From: Patescibacteria group bacterium
GTDB lineage: Bacteria; Patescibacteriota; Patescibacteriia; JAXHNJ01
Reading direction: 5' to 3'
DNA length: 64,000 nt
Assembly: GCA_041649715.1 (NCBI GenBank)
Contig: JBAZMP010000001.1
Coordinates: 82,741 to 146,740 of the forward strand
Positions 4,652 through 52,538 of the stretch are shown here, piece by piece. Under the pieces are notes generated by a model. That model saw only the letters and a program-made list of their open reading frames with translations, was not told where the DNA came from and did not search any database. A program made the position numbers and the translations under genes. Positions within the stretch are counted from its first letter, which is position 1. The number at the start of each line of letters is the position of its first letter.

Positions 4652-4736
4652 GCCGCCGTGGTGAAATTGCCGTGAACCACTAAAGGGTTCACGGCAACCC
4701 CGCACCCTTTAGTGGTGCGGGGTGGTATACACGCAA
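4652..4736 (+). pseudogene. duplicate of tRNA-Leu(TAA) nt 1-30, interrupted in the D-loop by a 55-nt double-hairpin element
   Basis: gccgccgtggtgaaattg at 4652-4669 and gtatacacgcaa at 4725-4736 are identical to positions 1-30 of the tRNA-Leu at 5011. The insert lies at 4670-4724. Confidence 0.8.
4670..4724 (+). repeat. double-hairpin element, copy B (ccgtgaacc-ACTAAAG-ggttcacgg caa ccccgcacc-CTTTAGT-ggtgcgggg)
   Basis: Same architecture and loops as the copies at 316-369 and 52367-52421. Confidence 0.8.
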
Positions 4737-5010: not shown

Positions 5011-5097
5011 GCCGCCGTGGTGAAATTGGTATACACGCAAGACTTAAAATCTTGTGGGAGCAATCCCGTGTCGGTCCGAGTCCGACCGGCGGCACCA
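5011..5097 (+). tRNA. tRNA-Leu, anticodon TAA, type II with a long variable arm; CCA encoded
   Basis: Acceptor gccgccg/cggcggc, anticodon stem caaga/tcttg with loop ctTAAaa, variable arm gggagcaatccc, T-arm gtcggtccgagtccgac, terminal acca. Confidence 0.85.
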
Positions 5098-9252: not shown

Positions 9253-9447
9253 TATCTAATCAGTGGCTCTGCGCCGCTGAAAAAAATAAATTTATCGTCT
9301 GGAGCCGGTTTTACGAAAAAGTTCGCACCTTTTTCGTCTGACCGGTCGGCGGGCGGCCGGTGCGCGGGGGGGTCGGCCGCCCGCCCTGTCCGCGCTTTTT
9401 CTTAAAAAGCCTTCCTTTTTCGTGCCACGCTTCACGTGGCGCGCCGC
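9253..9447. repeat. inverted repeat copy A of the recombinase-associated repeat; 9297-9423 (127 bp) is 100% identical to the reverse complement of 14483-14609
   Basis: Direct comparison with the reverse complement of 14460-14705. The outer 45 nt are diverged. Contains a 12-bp all-GC hairpin, ggcgggcggccg...cggccgcccgcc, and a terminal hairpin whose stem shows compensatory changes between copies. Confidence 0.85.
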
Positions 9448-9460
9448 AACTATAACAATG

Positions 9461-10045
9461 CTATAAACAATCACTTTTACTTATAGCAAAAAAGAAAGTT
9501 TGAGTTGAGTTTTGCACTTGATAAGAATATTCCATGTTTATATCTTGGTCTAGGAGATTATTCCTTGTTTCTGGTGTTTGGCAAGCATTGGGGGCGATGA
9601 TATTTTTCAGTGACTCATTTGTAAGTTGGCTTGTGTCAATATCATGGAGTGTATAAACATAACGAATTGCATTTGGTTCTGCTAAAATATCAGTCCAAGT
9701 CGTTACCGCATCAACTTGCTGAGGAAGTGTTGATTGGGCTTTTATTTCCTGGACGGATTCCTTGATAATATCCTGTTTAGAGTCGCCCCCTAAAATAGCG
9801 GAAGTACCGTTATATACAACATAACGAGCGACTAAAAATGCCATAATAAAAACTACTATGCCTATAACAGAGCCCACAAGTGATTTAATCTTTTTACTCT
9901 TTTTTCCTGGGGTTTTTTCTGATGTTTTGGGTGTTAATTCAGATTGAACGATTTTACCGCCGCAACTCTTGCAAAATTTTGCATTATCATTATTTTCGTT
10001 ACCACAATTTTTACAATATATTTTTTTCTCTTCGGTATTAGTCAT
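9461..10045 (-). CDS. zinc-ribbon membrane protein: N-terminal CxxC-x-CxxC, one transmembrane helix, extracytoplasmic C-terminal domain
   Basis: CKNCGNENNDNAKFCKSCG followed by a hydrophobic helix. Confidence 0.45.
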   Translation of the reverse strand: MTNTEEKKIYCKNCGNENNDNAKFCKSCGGKIVQSELTPKTSEKTPGKKSKKIKSLVGSVIGIVVFIMAFLVARYVVYNGTSAILGGDSKQDIIKESVQEIKAQSTLPQQVDAVTTWTDILAEPNAIRYVYTLHDIDTSQLTNESLKNIIAPNACQTPETRNNLLDQDINMEYSYQVQNSTQTFFFAISKSDCL

Positions 10046-10226
10046 AAATTAGTAATTAAATATTATTTTATTTATTCTGCACGGCTAGGCTCCAGATAGC
10101 AAGCTTGATTTTATTAGGTAGGTTTTTAAGGGTATAGTATTTTTTGTGTACCGCTCTTGTCCCGTCGGATGACGGGATCACGGGGCGCGCCGCAATGGAT
10201 ATAAAAAATTGGTTAGGGTTTCTATG

Positions 10227-11102
10227 TTAATTCATTATATTATTATTTCGGAAAATATCAAGAAACGAGGGAGTTGCATGACCAAAAGAGTATGAAGCGT
10301 TTAGGGTTTCTATATATGCCTGTTCTTTATATATTTTTAGTAATTTTTTCCCCTCATCAGTAATTGGCACCTCTTTCTCATTGATTTTTATTACCTTATA
10401 GCCACTCACAATTGATACAAGGCGGCCAGTCCTGATATCAAAAATTGGGCCACCACTATTTCCAGGGTTGAAAGCCATTGTAAATTCATATAGGTATTTA
10501 TCTTTAGAAGTTTGATATCTACAGTTAATAACACCCTTGTCGACCCTAAGTAGTATGTTACCAATTAATGGTTTACTTAAATCATTATTGGCAAAATCCA
10601 ATTTGCACAAAGGATATCCCAAAACACCAACTTCCGACCCAATCGGTAAAAAATCTTTTGAGATTCTAACAAAATCATTTCTATCTGCTAATATTTTGTC
10701 GTCAACCTGATAGAATTCCTTATCTAAATTAAATATTGCTAAGTCAATCTCGGGGAAAATAAACAAATCTTTATTTATTTTTGGTTCATAAATTCTATAG
10801 TGCCAACTATTATCATCGTCGTGTTTTAACAAATAATATTTGTCACCATCATGGTGCTGAGACGACTCATCTTTTTGAGTATTACTAACAACATGAGCAG
10901 CGGTTAATAATTTCTCCTGTGCTGCCACAAAACCAGTCCCAAGTGTGGTCCACCTAATTACTTGTTGATCGTTAATTTTTTCACTTCTACCACGTACAAT
11001 TATATAAACTGATTTTTTTAGCCACCTCACACATTCAGAAAATGAATGAAATTTTTCTGGTCTTTTTGGGATTCTGATTTTTTTATCTTTTGACATATTC
11101 AC
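10227..11102 (-). CDS. trypsin-like (S1 family) serine protease
   Basis: Catalytic triad context TAAHVV (His), DLAIF (Asp) and GNSGGPIF (Ser). Confidence 0.7.
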   Translation of the reverse strand: MNMSKDKKIRIPKRPEKFHSFSECVRWLKKSVYIIVRGRSEKINDQQVIRWTTLGTGFVAAQEKLLTAAHVVSNTQKDESSQHHDGDKYYLLKHDDDNSWHYRIYEPKINKDLFIFPEIDLAIFNLDKEFYQVDDKILADRNDFVRISKDFLPIGSEVGVLGYPLCKLDFANNDLSKPLIGNILLRVDKGVINCRYQTSKDKYLYEFTMAFNPGNSGGPIFDIRTGRLVSIVSGYKVIKINEKEVPITDEGKKLLKIYKEQAYIETLNASYSFGHATPSFLDIFRNNNIMN

Positions 11103-11135
11103 AACTTTAAAGGTGGGTTATTAAAAATCAATAAA

Positions 11136-13067
11136 CTACCTTTGGAATTTTTTTTCAACTAAGAATTTATGAATTTTATGCCCATATTGATTAACAAGCC
11201 TATTATGTTGGACGCTCACGGCGGCTGATGCCTCACCTAAAAATGGTTCCCCACTTTCAATTTTTCTTTTAGCAATTTCACGACAAACTGCTTCAACAAC
11301 TAGTTCAGCAAGCATAACTTGGCAGTGTCCTTCTTCTTGATTTTCGCCCTGTGGGCCAAAATACATTTCTACAGACGGTGCTTTTGTCGCAATAATTACT
11401 TGGCCACTAGATTGCTCAAACCTAACCCTTTGACGAGGATCAGCAATAGGACTGAAAGTAATTTCTCTAAATAAACCAGCTTTCTTTTTATCTGTAGGTT
11501 CTGGCGTTTTTCTTTTTGAAATGACTTTTACTAATGCCTCTGCTTGCAAGTTATTTGCAATTGCAGTGATTACTCCTTCTGCACCAACTTGTTTACCAAT
11601 AACATGGATCTGTGTAGTTACAATACCGCTTTCATCAGCACCTTTCTCATTTAGTACTATTTTAGGATTTATGACAATAACATTGTTATTGTCACTATTA
11701 ATTTTTATGGTCGCTCCAGGCGGTAATTTTAGGGGAACGATTACTTTAAGAGTAAGAGTTGCTTGGCAATCGACTACTAATTGACTATAGTCAGGGACAA
11801 AATCAAATCCATTTGGAGGTGGTTCATTAATAGTACCCTCCGACCCACCTGTCCCTTCGCCTTTAGTGTCTTCTAGCTCTAATTTAGCAATTTTATTTAA
11901 TTCAGGAAGGGCTGATTGAAAACGTTTTCTTGTTTTCTCACTCTCTAATTTATTTTCACTTTCTTTAGCCAATTTTTCCTCGTCTTTAACAAATTTTTCA
12001 ACTTCCTTACTAATTATTTGGTCAAGCGCTTTTGAAAAATTATCAGTCCAGTCTATGCCTTGTCGATCTGATCTAATAATTGGCCTTTGTTCTACTCTTA
12101 ATAGATGGTCAATATAATCTACGACTGCCCTTCCGTATAATCTTACGGCGTATATATTACCTTCAAATTTTTTAGTTAGTGTAATATCAAGAACCGCGCC
12201 CTTGGATTTTACTAAAATCCCGCTTTCCCTTAGCGGCCCTTCGTCATCATAGCTACTTAGTGGTTCATCAGACCTATAGAGTTCCAGATCAATTTTTGCC
12301 GCATTATAACCCGGCACAGTAAGTTCAGTATGCTCATATAATTTCCCTTTTGGTAATATATACGATAGTTCCTCTTGCCTTTTAATTTTCTCTCTCCCAT
12401 TCTTTTCGATTAGGACTACTTCTCTCATTTTGCTGCTCATTATGTCTCGCAGACTATAATAATGCTCCAATTGCCTTTTTAAATTATCATATTGCGGAAT
12501 TCTAATTTGAGAATTTAGAGCTTTTAGAGTTATACAGGTTCCGTTACTCTCAATTCCGATATCTTTTCGCATCTGTTTTGTGACTTTACATGGTATATAG
12601 CGTTTATAGTTAAGATGTTCAAGAATGCATTTGTTATACGATTGCTCTATAACTGATTCAACGGTACCATAACCAAAAGCGATCATGGCTTCTTTTAATC
12701 CTCTGCCCCAATACCCTCTTCCAGCTTGTTCTTCCGTAAATTCACTTGTATCGCCACCATATTCAGCGACGCGCTCATCCATCTTAAACTCATTAAAACC
12801 CTCGGCATAATCGATTACTCGCACTACTGATCCTTGACGTTTTCTGATAAGTTCAATTATTATTTTTCCACTATTTTTAATATTTTTATTCTCAAGTCGT
12901 CGATAGGAGTCATCACAATTTGTGATTAACTCAATAAGTGCCAAAACCGCATTATTTTTAATTGTGGCTCTAGCTTGTTGTTCGGCAACACGTTGATGTA
13001 AGTGAATTTGTTTATTGACTGCGATGTCCATAAAATTAATTCTTAATTTTGCGTCTATGCATGCCAC
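11136..13067 (-). CDS. GHKL-superfamily (HATPase_c-like) ATPase domain protein, 643 aa, with a long uncharacterised C-terminal region
   Basis: Bergerat-fold motifs: N-box ELITNCDDS, G1-like IDYAEGF, G2 GRGYWGRGLKEA. Confidence 0.55.
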   Translation of the reverse strand: MACIDAKLRINFMDIAVNKQIHLHQRVAEQQARATIKNNAVLALIELITNCDDSYRRLENKNIKNSGKIIIELIRKRQGSVVRVIDYAEGFNEFKMDERVAEYGGDTSEFTEEQAGRGYWGRGLKEAMIAFGYGTVESVIEQSYNKCILEHLNYKRYIPCKVTKQMRKDIGIESNGTCITLKALNSQIRIPQYDNLKRQLEHYYSLRDIMSSKMREVVLIEKNGREKIKRQEELSYILPKGKLYEHTELTVPGYNAAKIDLELYRSDEPLSSYDDEGPLRESGILVKSKGAVLDITLTKKFEGNIYAVRLYGRAVVDYIDHLLRVEQRPIIRSDRQGIDWTDNFSKALDQIISKEVEKFVKDEEKLAKESENKLESEKTRKRFQSALPELNKIAKLELEDTKGEGTGGSEGTINEPPPNGFDFVPDYSQLVVDCQATLTLKVIVPLKLPPGATIKINSDNNNVIVINPKIVLNEKGADESGIVTTQIHVIGKQVGAEGVITAIANNLQAEALVKVISKRKTPEPTDKKKAGLFREITFSPIADPRQRVRFEQSSGQVIIATKAPSVEMYFGPQGENQEEGHCQVMLAELVVEAVCREIAKRKIESGEPFLGEASAAVSVQHNRLVNQYGHKIHKFLVEKKFQR

Positions 13068-13704
13068 CTACGTATTTTTTATCTAACTCCATAGGTGAGT
13101 TAAGCAGCCTGGAGAATCTCGTTTCGCACATTTTAAGAAATTCTACCAAGTCATTTCTGTTATAATCTTCGACAGCTTCAAATAATTGTTGTAAGTTTTT
13201 TCTCCTCGTTTCCGGAAGGGAATCGAGGGTACAGTATATTAAATCACAAAACTCAAATTCGGATATCTTTATTGTATTTCCAACTCTAAGATACTCTTTA
13301 TATTTACTATTTTCTTCCAGTTGTTTAACTAATCGACCACTTTTTGTCCTTCGGTCGCCTTTAATCGCAAGTAGTTTCTTTGTGTCTATTTCGTGAGCTC
13401 CAAGAACTTTACGAATCTTTTGAACGATATTTAAACCTCGGCCCGTAATTTCGAATCCCTGAGCCTTACTGCCTGTAATTAAGCCTTTGTCTGTTCTACA
13501 TCTTAACCAACATTTTTCAACCTGAGATGAATCAGGATATTTTGAAATATAACCAGGCAATCCGAATCTTTGTGGAAAAAGCTCATAACATTCAACAACA
13601 AGATTCTCAAAGTTTGTTACTTTATTCCTCTGGATTAATGAGTATAAGGCAAATACTAATAAATCATCATAAGGAATTTTATTATAAATTTTTGGGTCAA
13701 ACAT
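13036..13704 (-). CDS. hypothetical protein, 222 aa, in an operon with the GHKL ATPase
   Basis: ORF overlaps the downstream gene by about 30 nt, suggesting translational coupling. No motif recognised. Confidence 0.4.
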   Translation of the reverse strand: MFDPKIYNKIPYDDLLVFALYSLIQRNKVTNFENLVVECYELFPQRFGLPGYISKYPDSSQVEKCWLRCRTDKGLITGSKAQGFEITGRGLNIVQKIRKVLGAHEIDTKKLLAIKGDRRTKSGRLVKQLEENSKYKEYLRVGNTIKISEFEFCDLIYCTLDSLPETRRKNLQQLFEAVEDYNRNDLVEFLKMCETRFSRLLNSPMELDKKYVGGMHRRKIKN

Positions 13705-13712
13705 AATATTAT

Positions 13713-13952
13713 CTATTTAAGCTTAAATCTTTGATCTTTGGTTGTGTGGTGAAATTTTGATTTAACGTCGCGGACCATTTTTTCAATAGAATCAAAAATT
13801 TTTCGGACATCACTTTCCGTATAATCATATGCTTGACGATTCGCACAATTCCCTAAAATCATAAGTTTATTTAAAACTTCATTTGTTCTGTATTCGGCAA
13901 GTCTTTTAAATCTATCTGCTTTTGACTCGTTAATTGGGGGTTTGGGTTTCAT
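13713..13952 (-). CDS. hypothetical small basic protein, 79 aa
   Basis: Tightly spaced within the minus-strand operon. Confidence 0.35.
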   Translation of the reverse strand: MKPKPPINESKADRFKRLAEYRTNEVLNKLMILGNCANRQAYDYTESDVRKIFDSIEKMVRDVKSKFHHTTKDQRFKLK

Positions 13953-14130
13953 TGTATTTTTTTAAATCTTAAATTATTGAATTACTTATGAGTTTACTTA
14001 AAGGTTAAAAAATGGTTATATCATCTAAAAATTAGTCTAATACCATTAGTAATCATTGTCAAGATATAATATTGTGGATAACTAAAAAAGACCGAATTAA
14101 ATCGGCTAATATTAGCGAAAAAATACTATT

Positions 14131-14352
14131 CTAATTAATAAAGTAATAAATCTGCTTTTTATATATTTCGGCAAAGCGCTTTAATTCAATAATATCCACT
14201 CTTTGGTCCCCCGCCTCAACCTTTGATATATAGGATTGAGGCTCTTTAAGTTTATTGGCGACCTGTATTTGGGTTAATCCGGCCTCAATACGAGCTTTTT
14301 TTAGCTTTTGGATCAGTTTTTTATACTCTTCAAAATATATTGTGCTTGACAT
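14131..14352 (-). CDS. XRE-family helix-turn-helix transcriptional regulator
   Basis: LTQIQVANKLKEPQSYISKVEAG is a typical Cro/C1 HTH. Direct repeats ttctaattttgaatat and tcttaatttgaatat lie upstream at about 14360-14395. Confidence 0.7.
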   Translation of the reverse strand: MSSTIYFEEYKKLIQKLKKARIEAGLTQIQVANKLKEPQSYISKVEAGDQRVDIIELKRFAEIYKKQIYYFIN

Positions 14353-14459
14353 GGTTATATGATATATTCAAATTAAGAATATTCAAAATTAGAATATTAC
14401 AAAAGGGGAGTAAAGACGTGCGTATGGGTGGGCGGGGCAAACGTTAAGAGGTTTAAAAG

Positions 14460-14705
14460 CGGCGCATCTCCCGAAGGGAGATACGAAAAAGGAAGGCTTT
14501 TTAAGAAAAAGCGCGGACAGGGCGGGCGGCCGACCCCCCCCGCGCACCGGCCGCCCGCCGACCGGTCAGACGAAAAAGGTGCGAACTTTTTCGTAAAACC
14601 GGCTCCAGTTCGTAAATTGCGATTTTTTTGTGGCGAATAACCACTGATTAGATAATAAAATTAGGGCTTTTTGCCCGAAGACTTGGAAGTTCGACACCCG
14701 CGACG
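14460..14705. repeat. inverted repeat copy B: inverted relative to both copy A (9253-9447) and copy C (16139-16229)
   Basis: Reverse complement of 14483-14609 equals 9297-9423. Reverse complement of 14609-14705 equals 16139-16229 over about 92 bp. Confidence 0.85.
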
Positions 14706-14773
14706 ACGGGGGGCTCCGCCGGAGGCGGAGCAGCCAATTTTTCTAAGTTTAAATAAAAGCGAAAGCGACAACT

Positions 14774-16237
14774 ATGAAATATTTAATTTACGCCAGAAAA
14801 TCAACGGACGAGGACGACCGGCAAGTATTGTCCATAGAATCGCAAATAACAGAATTAAGAGAATTTGCCGTCAAGGAAAATTTAGAAATTATTGATGAAT
14901 ACATAGAAAGCAAGACGGCCAAAGCGCCCGGTCGTCCTCTTTTTAATAAAATGATAGAACGAATTGAAAAAAACGGTCCCATGGGAATTTTGGCGTGGCA
15001 TCCCGACCGATTGGCGAGAAACAGCATTGACGGAGGGAAAATTATTTATTTGGTTGATACCGGCAAAATCGGCGGTTTAAAGTTTCCCACTTTTTGGTTT
15101 GATGCCACGCCGCAGGGAAAATTCATGCTTAATATCGCTTTCGGCCAGAGCAAATACTATATTGATAACTTGTGTGAAAACATCAAGCGCGGCATACGCC
15201 AGAAATTAAGAAGAGGCGAATGGCCAGGGCTCGCGCCATTAGGGTATCTCAACGAATTGCGCCACCATACAATTATTAAAGACCCCGAGCGTTGGCCCAT
15301 AGTCAAAAAACTCTTTGAGGCGTATGCCGCGGGCAATCATACTTTGGAAAGTTTAAAACAGTTGTCGCTTTCGCTGGGCTTGGTGAGCCGAAGGTCCGGA
15401 AAACCGATAGTCATCACGATACTTTCGGATATGCTGACCAATCCGTTTTATTACGGCGTATTCGAGCACAGCGGTGAAATGCACCAGGGGACGCACGAGC
15501 CGATCATTACCAAACGGCTTTTTGACGCCGTTCAAAAAATCCATAATACCAAGCGCAAGACAAGAGTAAGAAAAGAGCTGATTCCTTTCGCTTTCCGAGG
15601 CGTATTTACCTGCGGCGAGTGCGGCCGAATGATTACGGCGGAAAGAAAGAAAAAGCCGTCAGGATTGAAATATATTTATTACCGCTGTACGAAAAAGAAT
15701 GTTGTTTGTTCCCAGAAATTCCTGGAAGAAAGGCGATTGGTCAGCCAGATTAATAAAACTATTGCGAGCGTCGCCCTTCCCGAAGATTGGAAAGACAAGA
15801 TGATAAAAAGGGTTGACGAAGAGATAAAGCAAGCTAAAACCAAACATCAAGGCGAGATTGTAGTGTTAAAAAATGAGCAAGCTAAGTTAGAATCAAAGCT
15901 TTTGCGACTGCTTGACGAACGGCTTGATCAGGCAATTTCCAAGCAGATTTTTTCCCAAGCAAAACAAAAAATCGTCAACCGGCAGGTTGAGATTAAAGAA
16001 TTGTTGGATGGGTTTAAACGGAAGGGCGACGCTCGGCTCGAACTCTTTAAAGAGTGGATTTTAGAGGCTCACCAAGCCCCTTTTATCGCAAAGCAGGAAA
16101 ATTTAGAAGTTAAGAGAAATTATATACAAAAAATTGGCTCGAACTTCCAAGTCTTCGGGCAAAAAGCCCTAATTTTATTATCTAATCAGTGGTTATTCGC
16201 CACAAAAAAATCGCAATTTACGAACTGGAGCGGGTGA
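14774..16237 (+). CDS. large serine recombinase (resolvase/integrase family with recombinase domain, zinc ribbon and coiled coil)
   Basis: N-terminal YARKSTDEDDRQVLSIESQ with the catalytic Ser-containing motif; recombinase domain. C-terminal Cys cluster CGECG...YYRC. The last roughly 30 codons lie inside repeat copy C. Confidence 0.75.
   Translation: MKYLIYARKSTDEDDRQVLSIESQITELREFAVKENLEIIDEYIESKTAKAPGRPLFNKMIERIEKNGPMGILAWHPDRLARNSIDGGKIIYLVDTGKIGGLKFPTFWFDATPQGKFMLNIAFGQSKYYIDNLCENIKRGIRQKLRRGEWPGLAPLGYLNELRHHTIIKDPERWPIVKKLFEAYAAGNHTLESLKQLSLSLGLVSRRSGKPIVITILSDMLTNPFYYGVFEHSGEMHQGTHEPIITKRLFDAVQKIHNTKRKTRVRKELIPFAFRGVFTCGECGRMITAERKKKPSGLKYIYYRCTKKNVVCSQKFLEERRLVSQINKTIASVALPEDWKDKMIKRVDEEIKQAKTKHQGEIVVLKNEQAKLESKLLRLLDERLDQAISKQIFSQAKQKIVNRQVEIKELLDGFKRKGDARLELFKEWILEAHQAPFIAKQENLEVKRNYIQKIGSNFQVFGQKALILLSNQWLFATKKSQFTNWSG
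16139..16229. repeat. inverted repeat copy C: a 92-bp perfect inverted partner of 14609-14705, ending at the CCA end of tRNA-Gly(GCC)
   Basis: Direct comparison. The repeat stops at ctggagc, overlapping the tRNA 3' terminus. Confidence 0.85.
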
Positions 16238-16301
16238 GCGGAGTCGAACCGCCGACCTTCTCCTTGGCAAGGAGACGTTCTAGCCACTGAACTACACCCG
16301 C
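16226..16301 (-). tRNA. tRNA-Gly, anticodon GCC, discriminator U; CCA encoded
   Basis: Reverse complement gives acceptor gcgggtg/cacccgc, anticodon stem tctcc/ggaga with loop ttGCCaa, T-arm ggcggttcgactccgct, terminal tcca. Confidence 0.85.
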
Positions 16302-16312
16302 ATGGTTTTTTA

Positions 16313-16384
16313 AGGTCACGGGCGGATTCGAACCGCCGAATAACGGTTTTGCAGACCGTTGCCTTACCACTTGGCTACGTGACC
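16313..16384 (-). tRNA. tRNA-Cys, anticodon GCA, discriminator U; no CCA
   Basis: Acceptor ggtcacg/cgtgacc, anticodon stem acggt/accgt with loop ctGCAaa, T-arm ggcggttcgaatccgcc. Confidence 0.85.
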
Positions 16385-52347: not shown

Positions 52348-52424
52348 GTGAGCGTAGAGGGATTCGCCTTGAACTACTGAAGAGTTCACGGCTGCCCCGA
52401 ACCCTTTAGTGGTTTGGGGCGAAC
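52348..52424 (-). pseudogene. tRNA-Lys 3' fragment (copy of the acceptor 3' strand and T-arm) interrupted in the T-loop by a 55-nt double-hairpin element
   Basis: gtgagcgtagagggattcg at 52348-52366 plus aac at 52422-52424 match gtgagcgcagagggattcgaac of the intact gene at 52466-52487. The insert lies at 52367-52421. Confidence 0.75.
52367..52421 (+). repeat. double-hairpin element, copy C (ccttgaact-ACTGAAG-agttcacgg ct gccccgaacc-CTTTAGT-ggtttggggc)
   Basis: The loop 1 A-to-G change still pairs with loop 2 through G:U. The stem 2 changes are compensatory. Confidence 0.8.
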
Positions 52425-52464
52425 TTTTCAATTCCACGTATATTTTAATATGTAATTTTTAAAG

Positions 52465-52538
52465 TGAGCGCAGAGGGATTCGAACCCCCGACACCCTGCT
52501 TAAGAGGCAGGTGCTCTAACCAGCTGAGCTATGCGCCC
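52465..52538 (-). tRNA. tRNA-Lys, anticodon CTT; no CCA
   Basis: Acceptor gggcgca/tgcgctc, anticodon stem cctgc/gcagg with loop ctCTTaa, T-arm gggggttcgaatccctc. Confidence 0.85.

What the first reader, a model, noticed from the sequence alone, without database searches (positions are those of the whole stretch)
14774..16237. Large serine recombinase whose C-terminus is encoded by the inverted repeat
The last roughly 30 codons of the recombinase lie within repeat copy C, so the repeat and gene are physically coupled. This is reminiscent of IS/transposon ends overlapping transposase genes. The N-terminal catalytic Ser motif (YARKSTDED...SIESQ) is intact.
Basis: partly seen in the sequence, partly recalled or inferred. 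Interest (0 to 1): 0.6.

Follow-up and report, generated by a model that had tools for sequence, protein, structure and literature searches.

The report
Integrase gene bracketed by its own attachment site
The gene is the integrase of a small mobile island inserted at the end of a glycine tRNA gene, and the repeat covering its last 32 codons is the island's attachment site, kept as a spare inverted copy upstream so that flipping the gene swaps the enzyme's tail.

Summary
ORF 14774-16237 is an intact large serine recombinase, and its last 32 codons lie in a 97-nt repeat (16139-16235) that recurs inverted at 14598-14694 (99%).

It is not an IS end. The ORF stops inside the 3' end of a convergent tRNA-Gly. 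Copy C is attR. Copy B (14459-14694) is a complete, inverted attP. Copy A (9253-9447) is attL of a 7-kb low-GC island.

Across 162 related loci:
- 93 of 100 testable loci keep the same inverted copy at about 100% identity, although the proteins are only 44-83% identical to the window's.
- The ORF runs into a tRNA or tmRNA in 96 loci.
- The tRNA-like TCGAAC motif sits 5 bp further out in the element arm. This is the known attP/attB signature.

Reading the gene through B yields a family-conserved 13-21 aa tail (…EKVRTFF…) with a coding signature, and integration replaces that tail with tRNA-derived residues. Both orientations occur in nature, for example L181 and L165 versus the majority.

My best reading is a tRNA-targeting integrative defence island whose integrase sits on an invertible segment that toggles its C-terminus. 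The role of the spare attP is inferred, not shown. I rate it a new variant of a known kind, interest about 0.68.

The parts
14774..16237 (+). Large serine recombinase (integrase) ORF, 487 aa, in its integrated-state form ending ...FTNWSG*
16139..16235 (+). Repeat copy C. It comprises the S arm (last 32 codons of int, which is the P arm of attP), the crossover region TGGAGC (16226-16231) and the first bases of the tRNA. Functionally this is attR.
16226..16301 (-). tRNA-Gly(GCC), the integration target (B' arm of attB). Its 3' end overlaps the int stop codon.
16313..16384 (-). tRNA-Cys(GCA), upstream neighbour in the same tRNA cluster (host flank)
14695..14773 (+). Segment u, the unique 79-nt region between the inverted repeat and the int start codon. 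It carries the tandem motif AAAGCGA-AAGCGACA. It is the presumed int promoter/operator and lies inside the invertible segment.
   Evidence: clade-conserved motifs in u; promoter function inferred
14459..14694 (-). Repeat copy B, a complete attP in inverted orientation. S' is 14608-14694, the crossover region GCTCCA is 14602-14607, and the G arm (P' arm plus hairpins) is 14459-14601.
14566..14607 (-). Spare 3' end of int. In frame with S' it encodes the conserved tail WSRFYEKVRTFFV followed by a stop.
9253..9447 (+). Repeat copy A (attL). 9253-9299 is a relic of the 3' end of another, P0002-like int (LSNQWLCAAEKNKFIV). 9300-9305 is the crossover region TGGAGC. 9306-9447 is the G arm.
9461..14352 (-). 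Island cargo, all on the strand opposite to int. It comprises an HTH_3 regulator (14131-14352), a 79-aa protein, a 222-aa protein, a 643-aa protein, a trypsin-like protease (10227-11102) and a Zn-ribbon membrane protein (9461-10045). GC is 29-38% against 42-48% in the flanks.

Best explanation
Shown. The ORF is the integrase of a ~7-kb integrative island (9253-16235) inserted at the 3' end of tRNA-Gly(GCC). The island belongs to a very large Patescibacteria family of tRNA/tmRNA-targeting large-serine-recombinase elements that carry mostly restriction-modification and defence cargo. The attP crossover lies inside the int ORF, 13-21 codons before its natural stop. The sequence left of the crossover (S, the last ~30-55 codons) is the P arm. 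The sequence right of it (G) is the P' arm, and G also encodes a conserved helical tail (...Y-E-K-V-R-T-F-F...), the stop codon and hairpins. Integration at tRNA positions 71-74 therefore replaces the tail with tRNA-derived codons (here WSG*). It leaves S|tRNA as attR (copy C) and X|G as attL (copy A). Every family member also keeps a second, complete attP (copy B = S|core|G) inverted 50-250 nt upstream of int. The int gene with its own upstream region is thus bracketed by S'/S, and the cargo by G/G'. The two copies of each arm co-evolve (concerted evolution). Both orientations of the int segment occur in nature.

Inferred. Inversion between B and C leaves the int body intact and switches its C-terminus between the truncated integrated form and the full-length tailed form. 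Inversion could occur by RecA-type recombination across the 75-180-nt perfect repeat, or by the integrase acting on attP x attR. The prevalent orientation is a locked state with a tail-less integrase. The spare attP is the means of regaining the full-length enzyme, and it gives the excised circle two inverted attP sites. Confidence is about 0.85 for the shown part and about 0.3 for the inferred role of copy B.
For: Domain architecture and invariant catalytic motifs. The int stop lies inside the tRNA-Gly 3' end.

Family-wide pattern:
- The ORF runs into a convergent tRNA/tmRNA in 96 loci.
- An S inverted repeat is present in 140 of 162 loci and in 93 of 100 with enough flank. Median length is 121 nt, and 56% of copies are 100% identical, while Int is only 44-83% identical to the window's.
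- A G inverted repeat (101-370 nt, median identity 99.7%) flanks 0.6-9 kb of cargo in 37 loci.

Three-way alignments give A = X|core|G, B = S|core|G and C = S|core|tRNA, with a 3-13 nt common core. The TCGAAC motif lies at +12 in the tRNA arm and +17 in the G arm in 47 of 49 loci. This matches the 5-bp shift of the zinc-ribbon-domain motif between attB and attP described in PMC3783163.

The tail is conserved: R in 88/88, T in 83/88, F in 80/88, N in 68/86. At most tail codons entropy is highest at the third codon position and lowest at the second. AlphaFold2 of the tailed homologue P0043 predicts a terminal helix at residues 481-495, pLDDT about 80.

Concerted evolution: WIN and L081 S arms differ at about 20 sites, yet the two copies within each genome are identical or nearly so.

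Flipped isomers. L181 is a 79.6-kb contig assembled at k=141, longer than its 93-nt 100% repeat. Its order is host genes, tRNA-Gln(+), S', u, int with tail WLAFYNEVRTYFKGSGS*. L165 has tRNA-Gly(+), a diverged S', and int with tail IYEKVRTFFERNY*. Single 90%-identity clusters contain both tail-less and tailed forms. Contigs L166 and L167 carry attP on both sides of int.

Cargo GC is 29-38% against 42-48% in the flanks. Family cargo is dominated by R-M and defence families.
Against: - Inversion is not at equilibrium. There are 96 standard loci against 2 robust and 3 ambiguous flipped ones. Cargo genes lie on the strand opposite to int in 110 of 122 ORFs. Flipping is therefore rare, or one state is strongly favoured.
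- Flipped loci could arise from integration through the second attP rather than by inversion in situ.
- Canonical large serine integrases do not recombine attP with attR or attL (PMC3783163).
- No excised circle was cleanly recovered. L034 looks circular but is gapped and scrambled.
- No empty attB was found in relatives.
- The function of the tail is unknown, and the tail-less enzyme might be fully active.
- Seven of 100 eligible loci lack the repeat. Three of these (L002, L109, L140) have an interrupted int ORF; the other four (L006, L020, L042, L111) have an intact one.
Confidence: 0.6

Rival explanations
1. The spare attP (copy B) has no role in rearrangement. It is an old duplication of the int 3' region kept as an integrase-binding operator, decoy or insulator between the divergent HTH/cargo and int promoters. 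Its long perfect identity is a neutral by-product of gene conversion between nearby inverted repeats. The rare flipped loci are accidents of homologous recombination.
For: B sits in the 420-nt divergent region between the HTH gene and int. G contains terminator-like hairpins. Orientation is strongly biased at 96:5. Repeat boundaries vary among lineages, with S 32-178 nt and G 101-370 nt, as expected for drifting conversion tracts.
Against: An operator needs about 50 bp, not 200-550 bp. The repeat is retained in 93 of 100 loci across proteins that have diverged to about 45% identity and across ten target types. In L081 the tail codons of A and B differ only by R/Q, a synonymous Leu change and a stop-to-stop change, which suggests coding constraint on both copies. 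Tailed and tail-less forms coexist within 90%-identity clusters.
Confidence: 0.22
2. Dual-attP circle. The mobile form is a circle with two inverted attP sites, analogous to the 2-micron plasmid with its recombinase target inside long inverted repeats. B exists so that the circle can integrate through either site, or flip by intramolecular attP x attP recombination. Integration through the site at the int 3' end gives the common, stable form. Integration through the other site gives the flipped form.
For: The half-site count in the integrated island is one attB plus two attPs. Contigs L166 and L167 have attP on both sides of int. Intramolecular attP x attP recombination is reported for A118-family integrases (PMC3783163), and the A118 integrase is the only serine integrase among the four solved structures matched. 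This model explains why A-B and B-C identities are both high.
Against: No clean circular contig was found. The cargo carries no replication genes. Two identical sites should give about 50:50 orientations, not 96:5, unless selection is invoked. L163 shows HTH and cargo directly after the int 3' end on the same strand, which fits inversion of the int segment alone rather than integration via the second site. That contig, however, starts inside the repeat.
Confidence: 0.25
3. IS-like element. B and C are terminal inverted repeats of a 1.6-1.8 kb minimal transposon consisting of the recombinase alone.
For: Many family members assemble as isolated 1.5-2 kb contigs bounded by the repeat, for example L010 (1771 bp) with the repeat at both ends.
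Against: Short contigs are the expected de Bruijn graph outcome of an inverted repeat. The sequence outside B is the element's own P' arm and cargo, not target DNA. Targets are always tRNA/tmRNA position 71-74. There is one copy in the window. Serine recombinases excise between directly oriented sites, and A and C are the direct pair.
Confidence: 0.03
4. Phase-variation switch for the cargo, comparable to the Hin/Gin type. The integrase inverts the cargo (A-B) or its own segment (B-C) to turn the defence genes on and off.
For: The cargo is mostly R-M and defence genes. Such genes are often phase-variable (my own knowledge). Two nested inverted-repeat pairs are present.
Against: A promoter-like site for the cargo (14386-14359, minus strand) lies inside the A-B segment, next to the HTH gene. 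Inverting that segment would therefore not uncouple it. Cargo orientation is essentially fixed, with 110 of 122 ORFs on the minus strand. Terminator-like hairpins in G separate segment u from the cargo.
Confidence: 0.07

Closest known systems
Large serine integrases of the A118/LI, phiC31, Bxb1 and SPbeta type
   Same: Resolvase, recombinase-domain and zinc-ribbon architecture with a long helical insertion. Quasi-palindromic attP. [quoted passage not shown] Integration yields hybrid attL and attR.
   Different: - The target is the 3' end of tRNA/tmRNA genes.
- attP lies inside the int ORF, so integration removes a conserved C-terminal helix.
- A second complete attP is kept inverted upstream of int.
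- The elements are small non-phage islands; only 2 of 2.9 million IMG/VR contigs carry a member.
- Tandem junctions imply attP x attR or attP x attL events.
SSV1-type (fusellovirus) integrases, whose attP lies within the int gene (own knowledge; archaeal tyrosine recombinases are reviewed in PMC8371274, listed but not read here)
   Same: The attachment site is inside the integrase ORF, so integration alters the gene.
   Different: Those enzymes are tyrosine recombinases and the gene is split into two large parts. Here only the last 13-21 codons are exchanged, and a spare copy of the 3' end is retained.
Hin invertible H segment of Salmonella (own knowledge)
   Same: A serine recombinase gene located inside the DNA segment that inverts, bounded by inverted repeats that contain the crossover sites.
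   Different: Hin is a small invertase with 26-bp hix sites and a Fis-dependent enhancer, and inversion switches an outward promoter. Here the enzyme is a large integrase, the repeats are 75-180 nt and include its own coding 3' end, and inversion changes the enzyme's C-terminus.
Yeast 2-micron plasmid FLP/FRT (own knowledge)
   Same: The predicted excised circle would have two long inverted repeats, each holding the recombinase target. These divide it into two unique segments, one of which carries the recombinase gene.
   Different: FLP is a tyrosine recombinase on a replicating plasmid, and flipping serves copy-number amplification. No replication functions are seen here, and the circle itself was not observed.
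Tycheposons and other tRNA-targeting genomic islands (bioRxiv 10.1101/2020.12.28.424599)
   Same: Small cargo-carrying islands integrated site-specifically at tRNA genes. A minority use a large serine recombinase. Cargo is defence or adaptive genes.
   Different: The word searches of that preprint turned up no inverted internal attachment site and no integrase tail exchange. The hosts are cyanobacteria, not Patescibacteria.

Membership tests
Large serine recombinase / serine integrase | N-terminal resolvase catalytic domain with the serine nucleophile and conserved Arg/Asp residues | tested here: met
   PF00239 at 9.7e-19. S10 is invariant and R8 nearly invariant; D78, R79 and R82 are invariant across homologues. 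Aligns with resolvase NTD structures 3guv and 3g13.
Large serine recombinase / serine integrase | Recombinase domain plus zinc-ribbon domain with a coiled-coil insertion | tested here: met
   PF07508 and PF13408. Four invariant Cys residues. Matches the A118 integrase CTD, 4kis, at 2.4e-05. The AF2 model of P0043 has long helices at 336-436 after the ribbon strands.
Large serine recombinase / serine integrase | attP and attB half-sites share a distal motif that is 5 bp closer to the crossover in attB | tested here: met
   TCGAAC-like motif at +17 in the element arm and +12 in the tRNA arm in 47 of 49 loci. The rule is taken from PMC3783163.
Large serine recombinase / serine integrase | Exchange at a 2-bp central dinucleotide | tested here: inconclusive
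   Three-way identity of A, B and C is 3-13 nt, with a minimum of 3-4 nt covering tRNA positions 71-74. This is compatible with a 2-bp crossover but does not resolve it.
Large serine recombinase / serine integrase | Unidirectional attP x attB reaction, reversed only with a directionality factor | not testable with these tools
   No biochemical data. Tandem S|G2 junctions (L008, L013, L090, L093, L132, L146, L155, L162) hint at non-canonical site pairings.
IS / transposon with terminal inverted repeats | The inverted repeats are the element termini, abutting target DNA, with several copies per genome at varied sites | tested here: not met
   The sequence outside B is the element's own arm and cargo. 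There is a single copy in the window. The target is always a tRNA/tmRNA 3' end.
Hin/Gin-type DNA invertase switch | Small serine recombinase with a C-terminal HTH, short crossover sites, and both orientations common in a population | tested here: not met
   The protein is a 487-aa large serine recombinase. The repeats are 32-178 nt. Orientation ratio is 96 standard to 2 robust plus 3 ambiguous flipped.
tRNA-targeting integrative genomic island | Integrase gene adjacent to a tRNA 3' end, att repeats at both ends, cargo of foreign composition, variable presence and cargo among relatives | tested here: met
   The empty site itself was not recovered.
2-micron-like flip-flop circle | Circular replicon with two long inverted repeats carrying the recombinase target, observed as isomers | tested here: inconclusive
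   The architecture follows if A x C excision occurs, and L166 and L167 show attP on both sides of int. No clean circle was found and no replication genes.

The most novel reading that the evidence does not exclude
A self-editing integrase switch. In this family the attachment site sits inside the integrase ORF, so integration removes a conserved C-terminal helix and locks the island in place. A spare inverted attP lets the int segment invert, which restores the full-length enzyme and re-arms excision. On this reading, directionality control is written into DNA topology rather than supplied by a separate directionality factor, and it is used by a very abundant class of defence islands in Patescibacteria.
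Probability: 0.25. Interest if true: 0.85.

Novelty: new variant of a known kind. Interest (0 to 1): 0.68.

Why it matters
Large serine integrases are major genome-engineering tools, and how they control direction is an active structural question. This family shows three features together:
- an attP inside the ORF;
- exchange of a conserved C-terminal helix on integration;
- a conserved spare inverted attP that makes the integrase gene invertible.

If these features are functional, they would amount to a factor-independent, DNA-encoded directionality or commitment switch, with a testable role for a short C-terminal helix.

The family is also very abundant. 7,910 of the 8,000 candidates scored passed E <= 1e-10. 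It targets at least ten tRNA/tmRNA types and carries mainly R-M and defence cargo. It is therefore probably a principal vehicle of gene flux in Patescibacteria. It is also a frequent cause of contig breaks next to tRNA genes in their metagenome-assembled genomes.

Tried and rejected
- Empty-site search. I searched homologues of the left-flank YggT gene and read five contexts. Synteny is not conserved, so no unoccupied attB was obtained.
- Circular form. L034 (4636 bp, 51-nt terminal direct repeat) looked like an excised circle, but it contains N gaps and non-collinear repeat fragments. I did not use it as proof.
- Viral origin. Only 2 family members were found among 2.9 million IMG/VR contigs, and cargo lacks capsid and replication genes. 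A prophage reading is rejected.
- Structured RNA in the GC-rich G region. Rfam at gathering thresholds returned only tRNAs. I did not pursue this further.
- Known defence system in the window's cargo. PADLOC gave only weak HTH and protease matches.
- Literature. Five full-text searches and a look into the tycheposon preprint found no description of this family or of an internal inverted attP.
- ssDNA folded-attP model (CTX-phage analogy). Rejected because double-strand cleavage of a hairpin attP by a serine recombinase would give hairpin-capped chromosome ends, not the observed B junction (reasoning only).
- Tandem integration of two circles, each with a palindromic attP. Rejected because the core in B is inverted relative to A and C.
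- Assembly artefact. Rejected because the architecture recurs in 140 independent loci, including a complete genome (L024), and imperfect repeats (85-97%) also occur.
Full report
**Observation.**
- ORF 14774-16237 (+) encodes 487 aa. It has Resolvase, Recombinase and Zn_ribbon_recom domains.
- The catalytic N-terminus (YARKST…SIESQ) and the DRLARN motif lie in columns that are invariant or nearly invariant among 38-81 homologues.
- Among solved structures it matches resolvase catalytic domains and the C-terminal domains of the A118 serine integrase.
- The inverted repeat is real. Arms 14598-14694 and 16139-16235 are 97 nt long and 99% complementary.
- Base 16139 is the first base of codon 456, so the last 32 codons lie in the repeat.
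- A third copy lies at 9253-9447. No further copies exist in the 64-kb window.

**Anatomy in the window.** The int stop codon (16235-16237) lies inside the acceptor 3' end of tRNA-Gly(GCC), which is convergent at 16226-16301. tRNA-Cys follows it. Aligning the three copies gives:
- C = S (int 3' end) | TGGAGC | tRNA.
- B, read on the minus strand, = S | TGGAGC | G. G is a ~140-nt GC-rich hairpin region.
- A = a 47-nt S-like relic | TGGAGC | G.

A and C are in direct orientation and B is inverted. Between A and B lie six genes, all on the minus strand. They are an HTH_3 regulator, three proteins of 79, 222 and 643 aa with no Pfam match, a trypsin-like protease and a Zn-ribbon membrane protein. 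Their GC content is 29-38% against 42-48% in the flanks. PADLOC recognises no known defence system among them.

**Family comparison.** The protein belongs to a very large Patescibacteria family. 7,910 of the 8,000 scored candidates passed E <= 1e-10. I collected 80 loci from species-representative genomes and 80 from metagenomes, plus individual contigs. Int in these loci is 44-83% identical to the window's.
- **Target.** The int ORF runs into a convergent tRNA or tmRNA gene in 96 loci. The targets are Ser 25, Gln 22, Ala 19, Gly 11, Asn 8, Val 3, and Arg, Asp, Trp and tmRNA 2 each.
- **S repeat.** The last 32-178 nt of int (median 121) recur inverted 50-250 nt upstream of the start codon in 140 of 162 loci. 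Among loci with enough flank the figure is 93 of 100. Mean identity is 98.6% and 56% of pairs are perfect.
- **G repeat.** The sequence just outside the upstream copy recurs inverted 0.6-9 kb further upstream in 37 loci. It is 101-370 nt long with median identity 99.7%.
- **Contig breaks.** Many contigs start about 48-49 nt before the upstream copy. That is what k=55 assemblers produce on entering this second repeat.
- **Core.** The two repeats overlap by 3-13 nt. Positional arithmetic from the T-loop places the end of B/C identity at tRNA position 71. The shared core therefore covers positions 71-74, around the discriminator base.

**Which site is which.** The G arm carries a family-conserved motif (GAAAAATCCGAACTTTTTT) that mimics the reverse complement of the tRNA T arm. 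The S arm carries its mirror image, so S|core|G is quasi-palindromic. In 47 of 49 measurable loci the TCGAAC element lies 17 nt from the end of B/C identity in the G arm and 12 nt from it in the tRNA arm. This 5-bp inward shift of the distal (zinc-ribbon) motif in attB relative to attP is the geometry established for serine integrases (PMC3783163). Copy B is therefore a complete attP. Copy C is attR (P arm plus tRNA B' arm). Copy A is attL.

**The attachment site is inside the gene.** Reading int through copy B instead of copy C gives …FTNWSRFYEKVRTFFV* in the window. In other loci the tails are clearly homologous:
- WLRTLNEIRTFFKENPQADLD*
- WRCFLDEVRTFFEENPEN*
- WWCLLEKVRTHFEQNPD*

Across 88 distinct sequences the Arg is invariant. 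Thr occurs in 83/88, Phe in 80/88 and Asn in 68/86. At most tail codons entropy is lowest at the second codon position and highest at the third, including codons beyond a 25-bp half-site. This is a coding signature. AlphaFold2 of a tailed homologue (P0043) models the tail as a terminal helix at residues 481-495 with pLDDT about 80.

In the integrated state the ORF ends instead in arbitrary tRNA-derived residues such as WSG* or WLGRRDSNP*. Integration therefore replaces the last 13-21 residues of the integrase.

**Concerted evolution.** The window and L081 (Int 83% identical, also at tRNA-Gly(GCC)) differ at about 20 positions in S. Within each genome the two S copies are identical or nearly so. 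In L081 the A and B tail copies differ only by R/Q, a synonymous Leu change and TGA/TAA. The left arm of the window's copy A translates in frame as LSNQWLCAAEKNKFIVWS|RFYEKVRTFFV*. This matches the C-terminus of the L081 integrase, P0002 (…LSNQWLCAAEKFKFSDWSG), better than the window's own. It is the relic of an earlier, related element at the same tRNA.

Tandem junctions of the type S|G2 occur in L008, L013, L090, L093, L132, L146, L155 and L162. New copies therefore do recombine with the hybrid site of a resident one.

**Both orientations exist.**
- L181 is a 79.6-kb contig assembled at k=141, longer than its 93-nt perfect repeat. Its order is host genes, tRNA-Gln(+), S', u, and int ending in the full tail WLAFYNEVRTYFKGSGS*.
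- A member of the same 90% cluster, P0331 (on up to a 572-kb contig), reads into the tRNA instead.
- L165 has tRNA-Gly(+), a diverged S', and a tailed int.
- L025, L050 and L105 also place the tRNA upstream of int, but these contigs end within the repeat, so the assembler may have chosen the orientation.
- L166 and L167 have attP on both sides of int.
- Eight of ten 90%-identity clusters examined contain both tailed and tail-less members.
- L039 has tRNA-Ser genes on both sides.

The common orientation still dominates. There are 96 standard loci against 2 robust and 3 ambiguous flipped ones. Cargo genes are on the strand opposite to int in 110 of 122 ORFs.

**Interpretation.** Firmly supported:
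- This is the integrase of a tRNA-targeting integrative island.
- The family's attP lies within the int ORF.
- A second inverted attP upstream of int is a conserved, homogenised feature.
- The int segment occurs in both orientations.

Inferred: the S'/S repeat makes the int segment invertible without damaging the gene, and inversion toggles the enzyme between a tail-less form and the full-length form. The int upstream region u lies inside the segment and carries clade-conserved motifs. The prevalence of the tail-less orientation suggests it is the stable, locked state. The spare attP would then be the route back to a full-length enzyme, and in an excised circle it would be a second usable site.

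The mechanism of inversion is open. The repeat length (75-180 nt, far more than a ~50-bp site) and its perfection fit homologous recombination and gene conversion. The tandem arrays, together with reported intramolecular attP x attP activity of A118-type enzymes (PMC3783163), leave room for integrase-catalysed flipping.

**Rivals and known systems.** The rival readings are a neutral operator or insulator duplicate, a dual-attP circle without in-situ inversion, a cargo phase switch, and an IS-like unit. They are weighed in the rival section. The IS reading is rejected.

The enzyme and its site geometry are those of known large serine integrases. The attP-in-ORF feature resembles SSV-type integrases. 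A recombinase gene inside its own invertible segment resembles Hin. The predicted circle resembles the 2-micron plasmid. I found no description of this combination or of this family in the searchable literature.

Family cargo is dominated by HTH regulators, type I/II/III R-M components, AAA_15/21 ATPases and Schlafen-like proteins. One close relative, the P0003 contig, carries a retroelement module (RT plus bAvd).

**Verdict.** I rate the finding a new variant of a known kind, with an unexplained conserved feature that is experimentally tractable.

Noticed in passing
window 4669-4722 and 52366-52419: A 54-nt double-hairpin sequence occurs twice (83% identity, direct). Each copy is close to a tRNA gene (tRNA-Leu 5011-5097 and tRNA-Lys 52464-52538). 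Possibly a terminator family or another att relic.
   Followed up: no
window 9253-9299: The left arm of copy A is an in-frame relic of the last ~16 codons of a different, P0002/L081-like integrase gene (LSNQWLCAAEKNKFIV). This indicates an earlier occupant of the same tRNA-Gly site.
   Followed up: yes
window 9461-14352: The low-GC cargo operon comprises HTH_3, a 79-aa, a 222-aa and a 643-aa protein, a trypsin-like protease and a Zn-ribbon membrane protein. The corresponding large cargo protein in L081 carries HATPase_c_3, although tblastn did not link it to the window's 643-aa protein. The operon matches no PADLOC system and may be an undescribed defence module.
   Followed up: partly
window 9420-9447 vs 14459-14486; same positions in L081: The distal hairpin of the G arm differs between copies A and B by compensatory changes (GCCACG…CGTGGC versus ATCTCCC…GGGAGAT). 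The A-type and B-type stems are each conserved between the window and L081.
   Followed up: no
L039:53-2044: The int cassette is flanked by two convergent tRNA-Ser genes (GCT upstream, GGA downstream). It looks as if the spare attP had recombined with a second tRNA, which would invert a chromosomal segment.
   Followed up: partly
L019, L024, L095 (downstream of int): The target looks like a tRNA 3' half (acceptor plus T arm) followed by an insertion. ARAGORN does not call it. It may be an intron-containing or otherwise unusual tRNA.
   Followed up: no
P0098 cluster (817-aa proteins, contigs up to 64 kb): One lineage has an integrase about 330 aa longer than the ~487-aa family norm and is found mostly in the full-length-tail state on long contigs. 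Its context was not examined.
   Followed up: no
window 14695-14773 and the equivalent region in relatives: The region between the upstream repeat and the int start carries clade-specific repeated motifs. AAAGCGAyA occurs twice, often around a hairpin, and another clade has AAATTGTCGGTGTAA. These are candidate operator or promoter elements.
   Followed up: partly
JGI contig of P0003 (Int 84% identical to the window's): A close relative of the window's integrase carries a diversity-generating retroelement module (RVT_1 plus bAvd) next to the HTH gene. No DNA was available for this contig.
   Followed up: no
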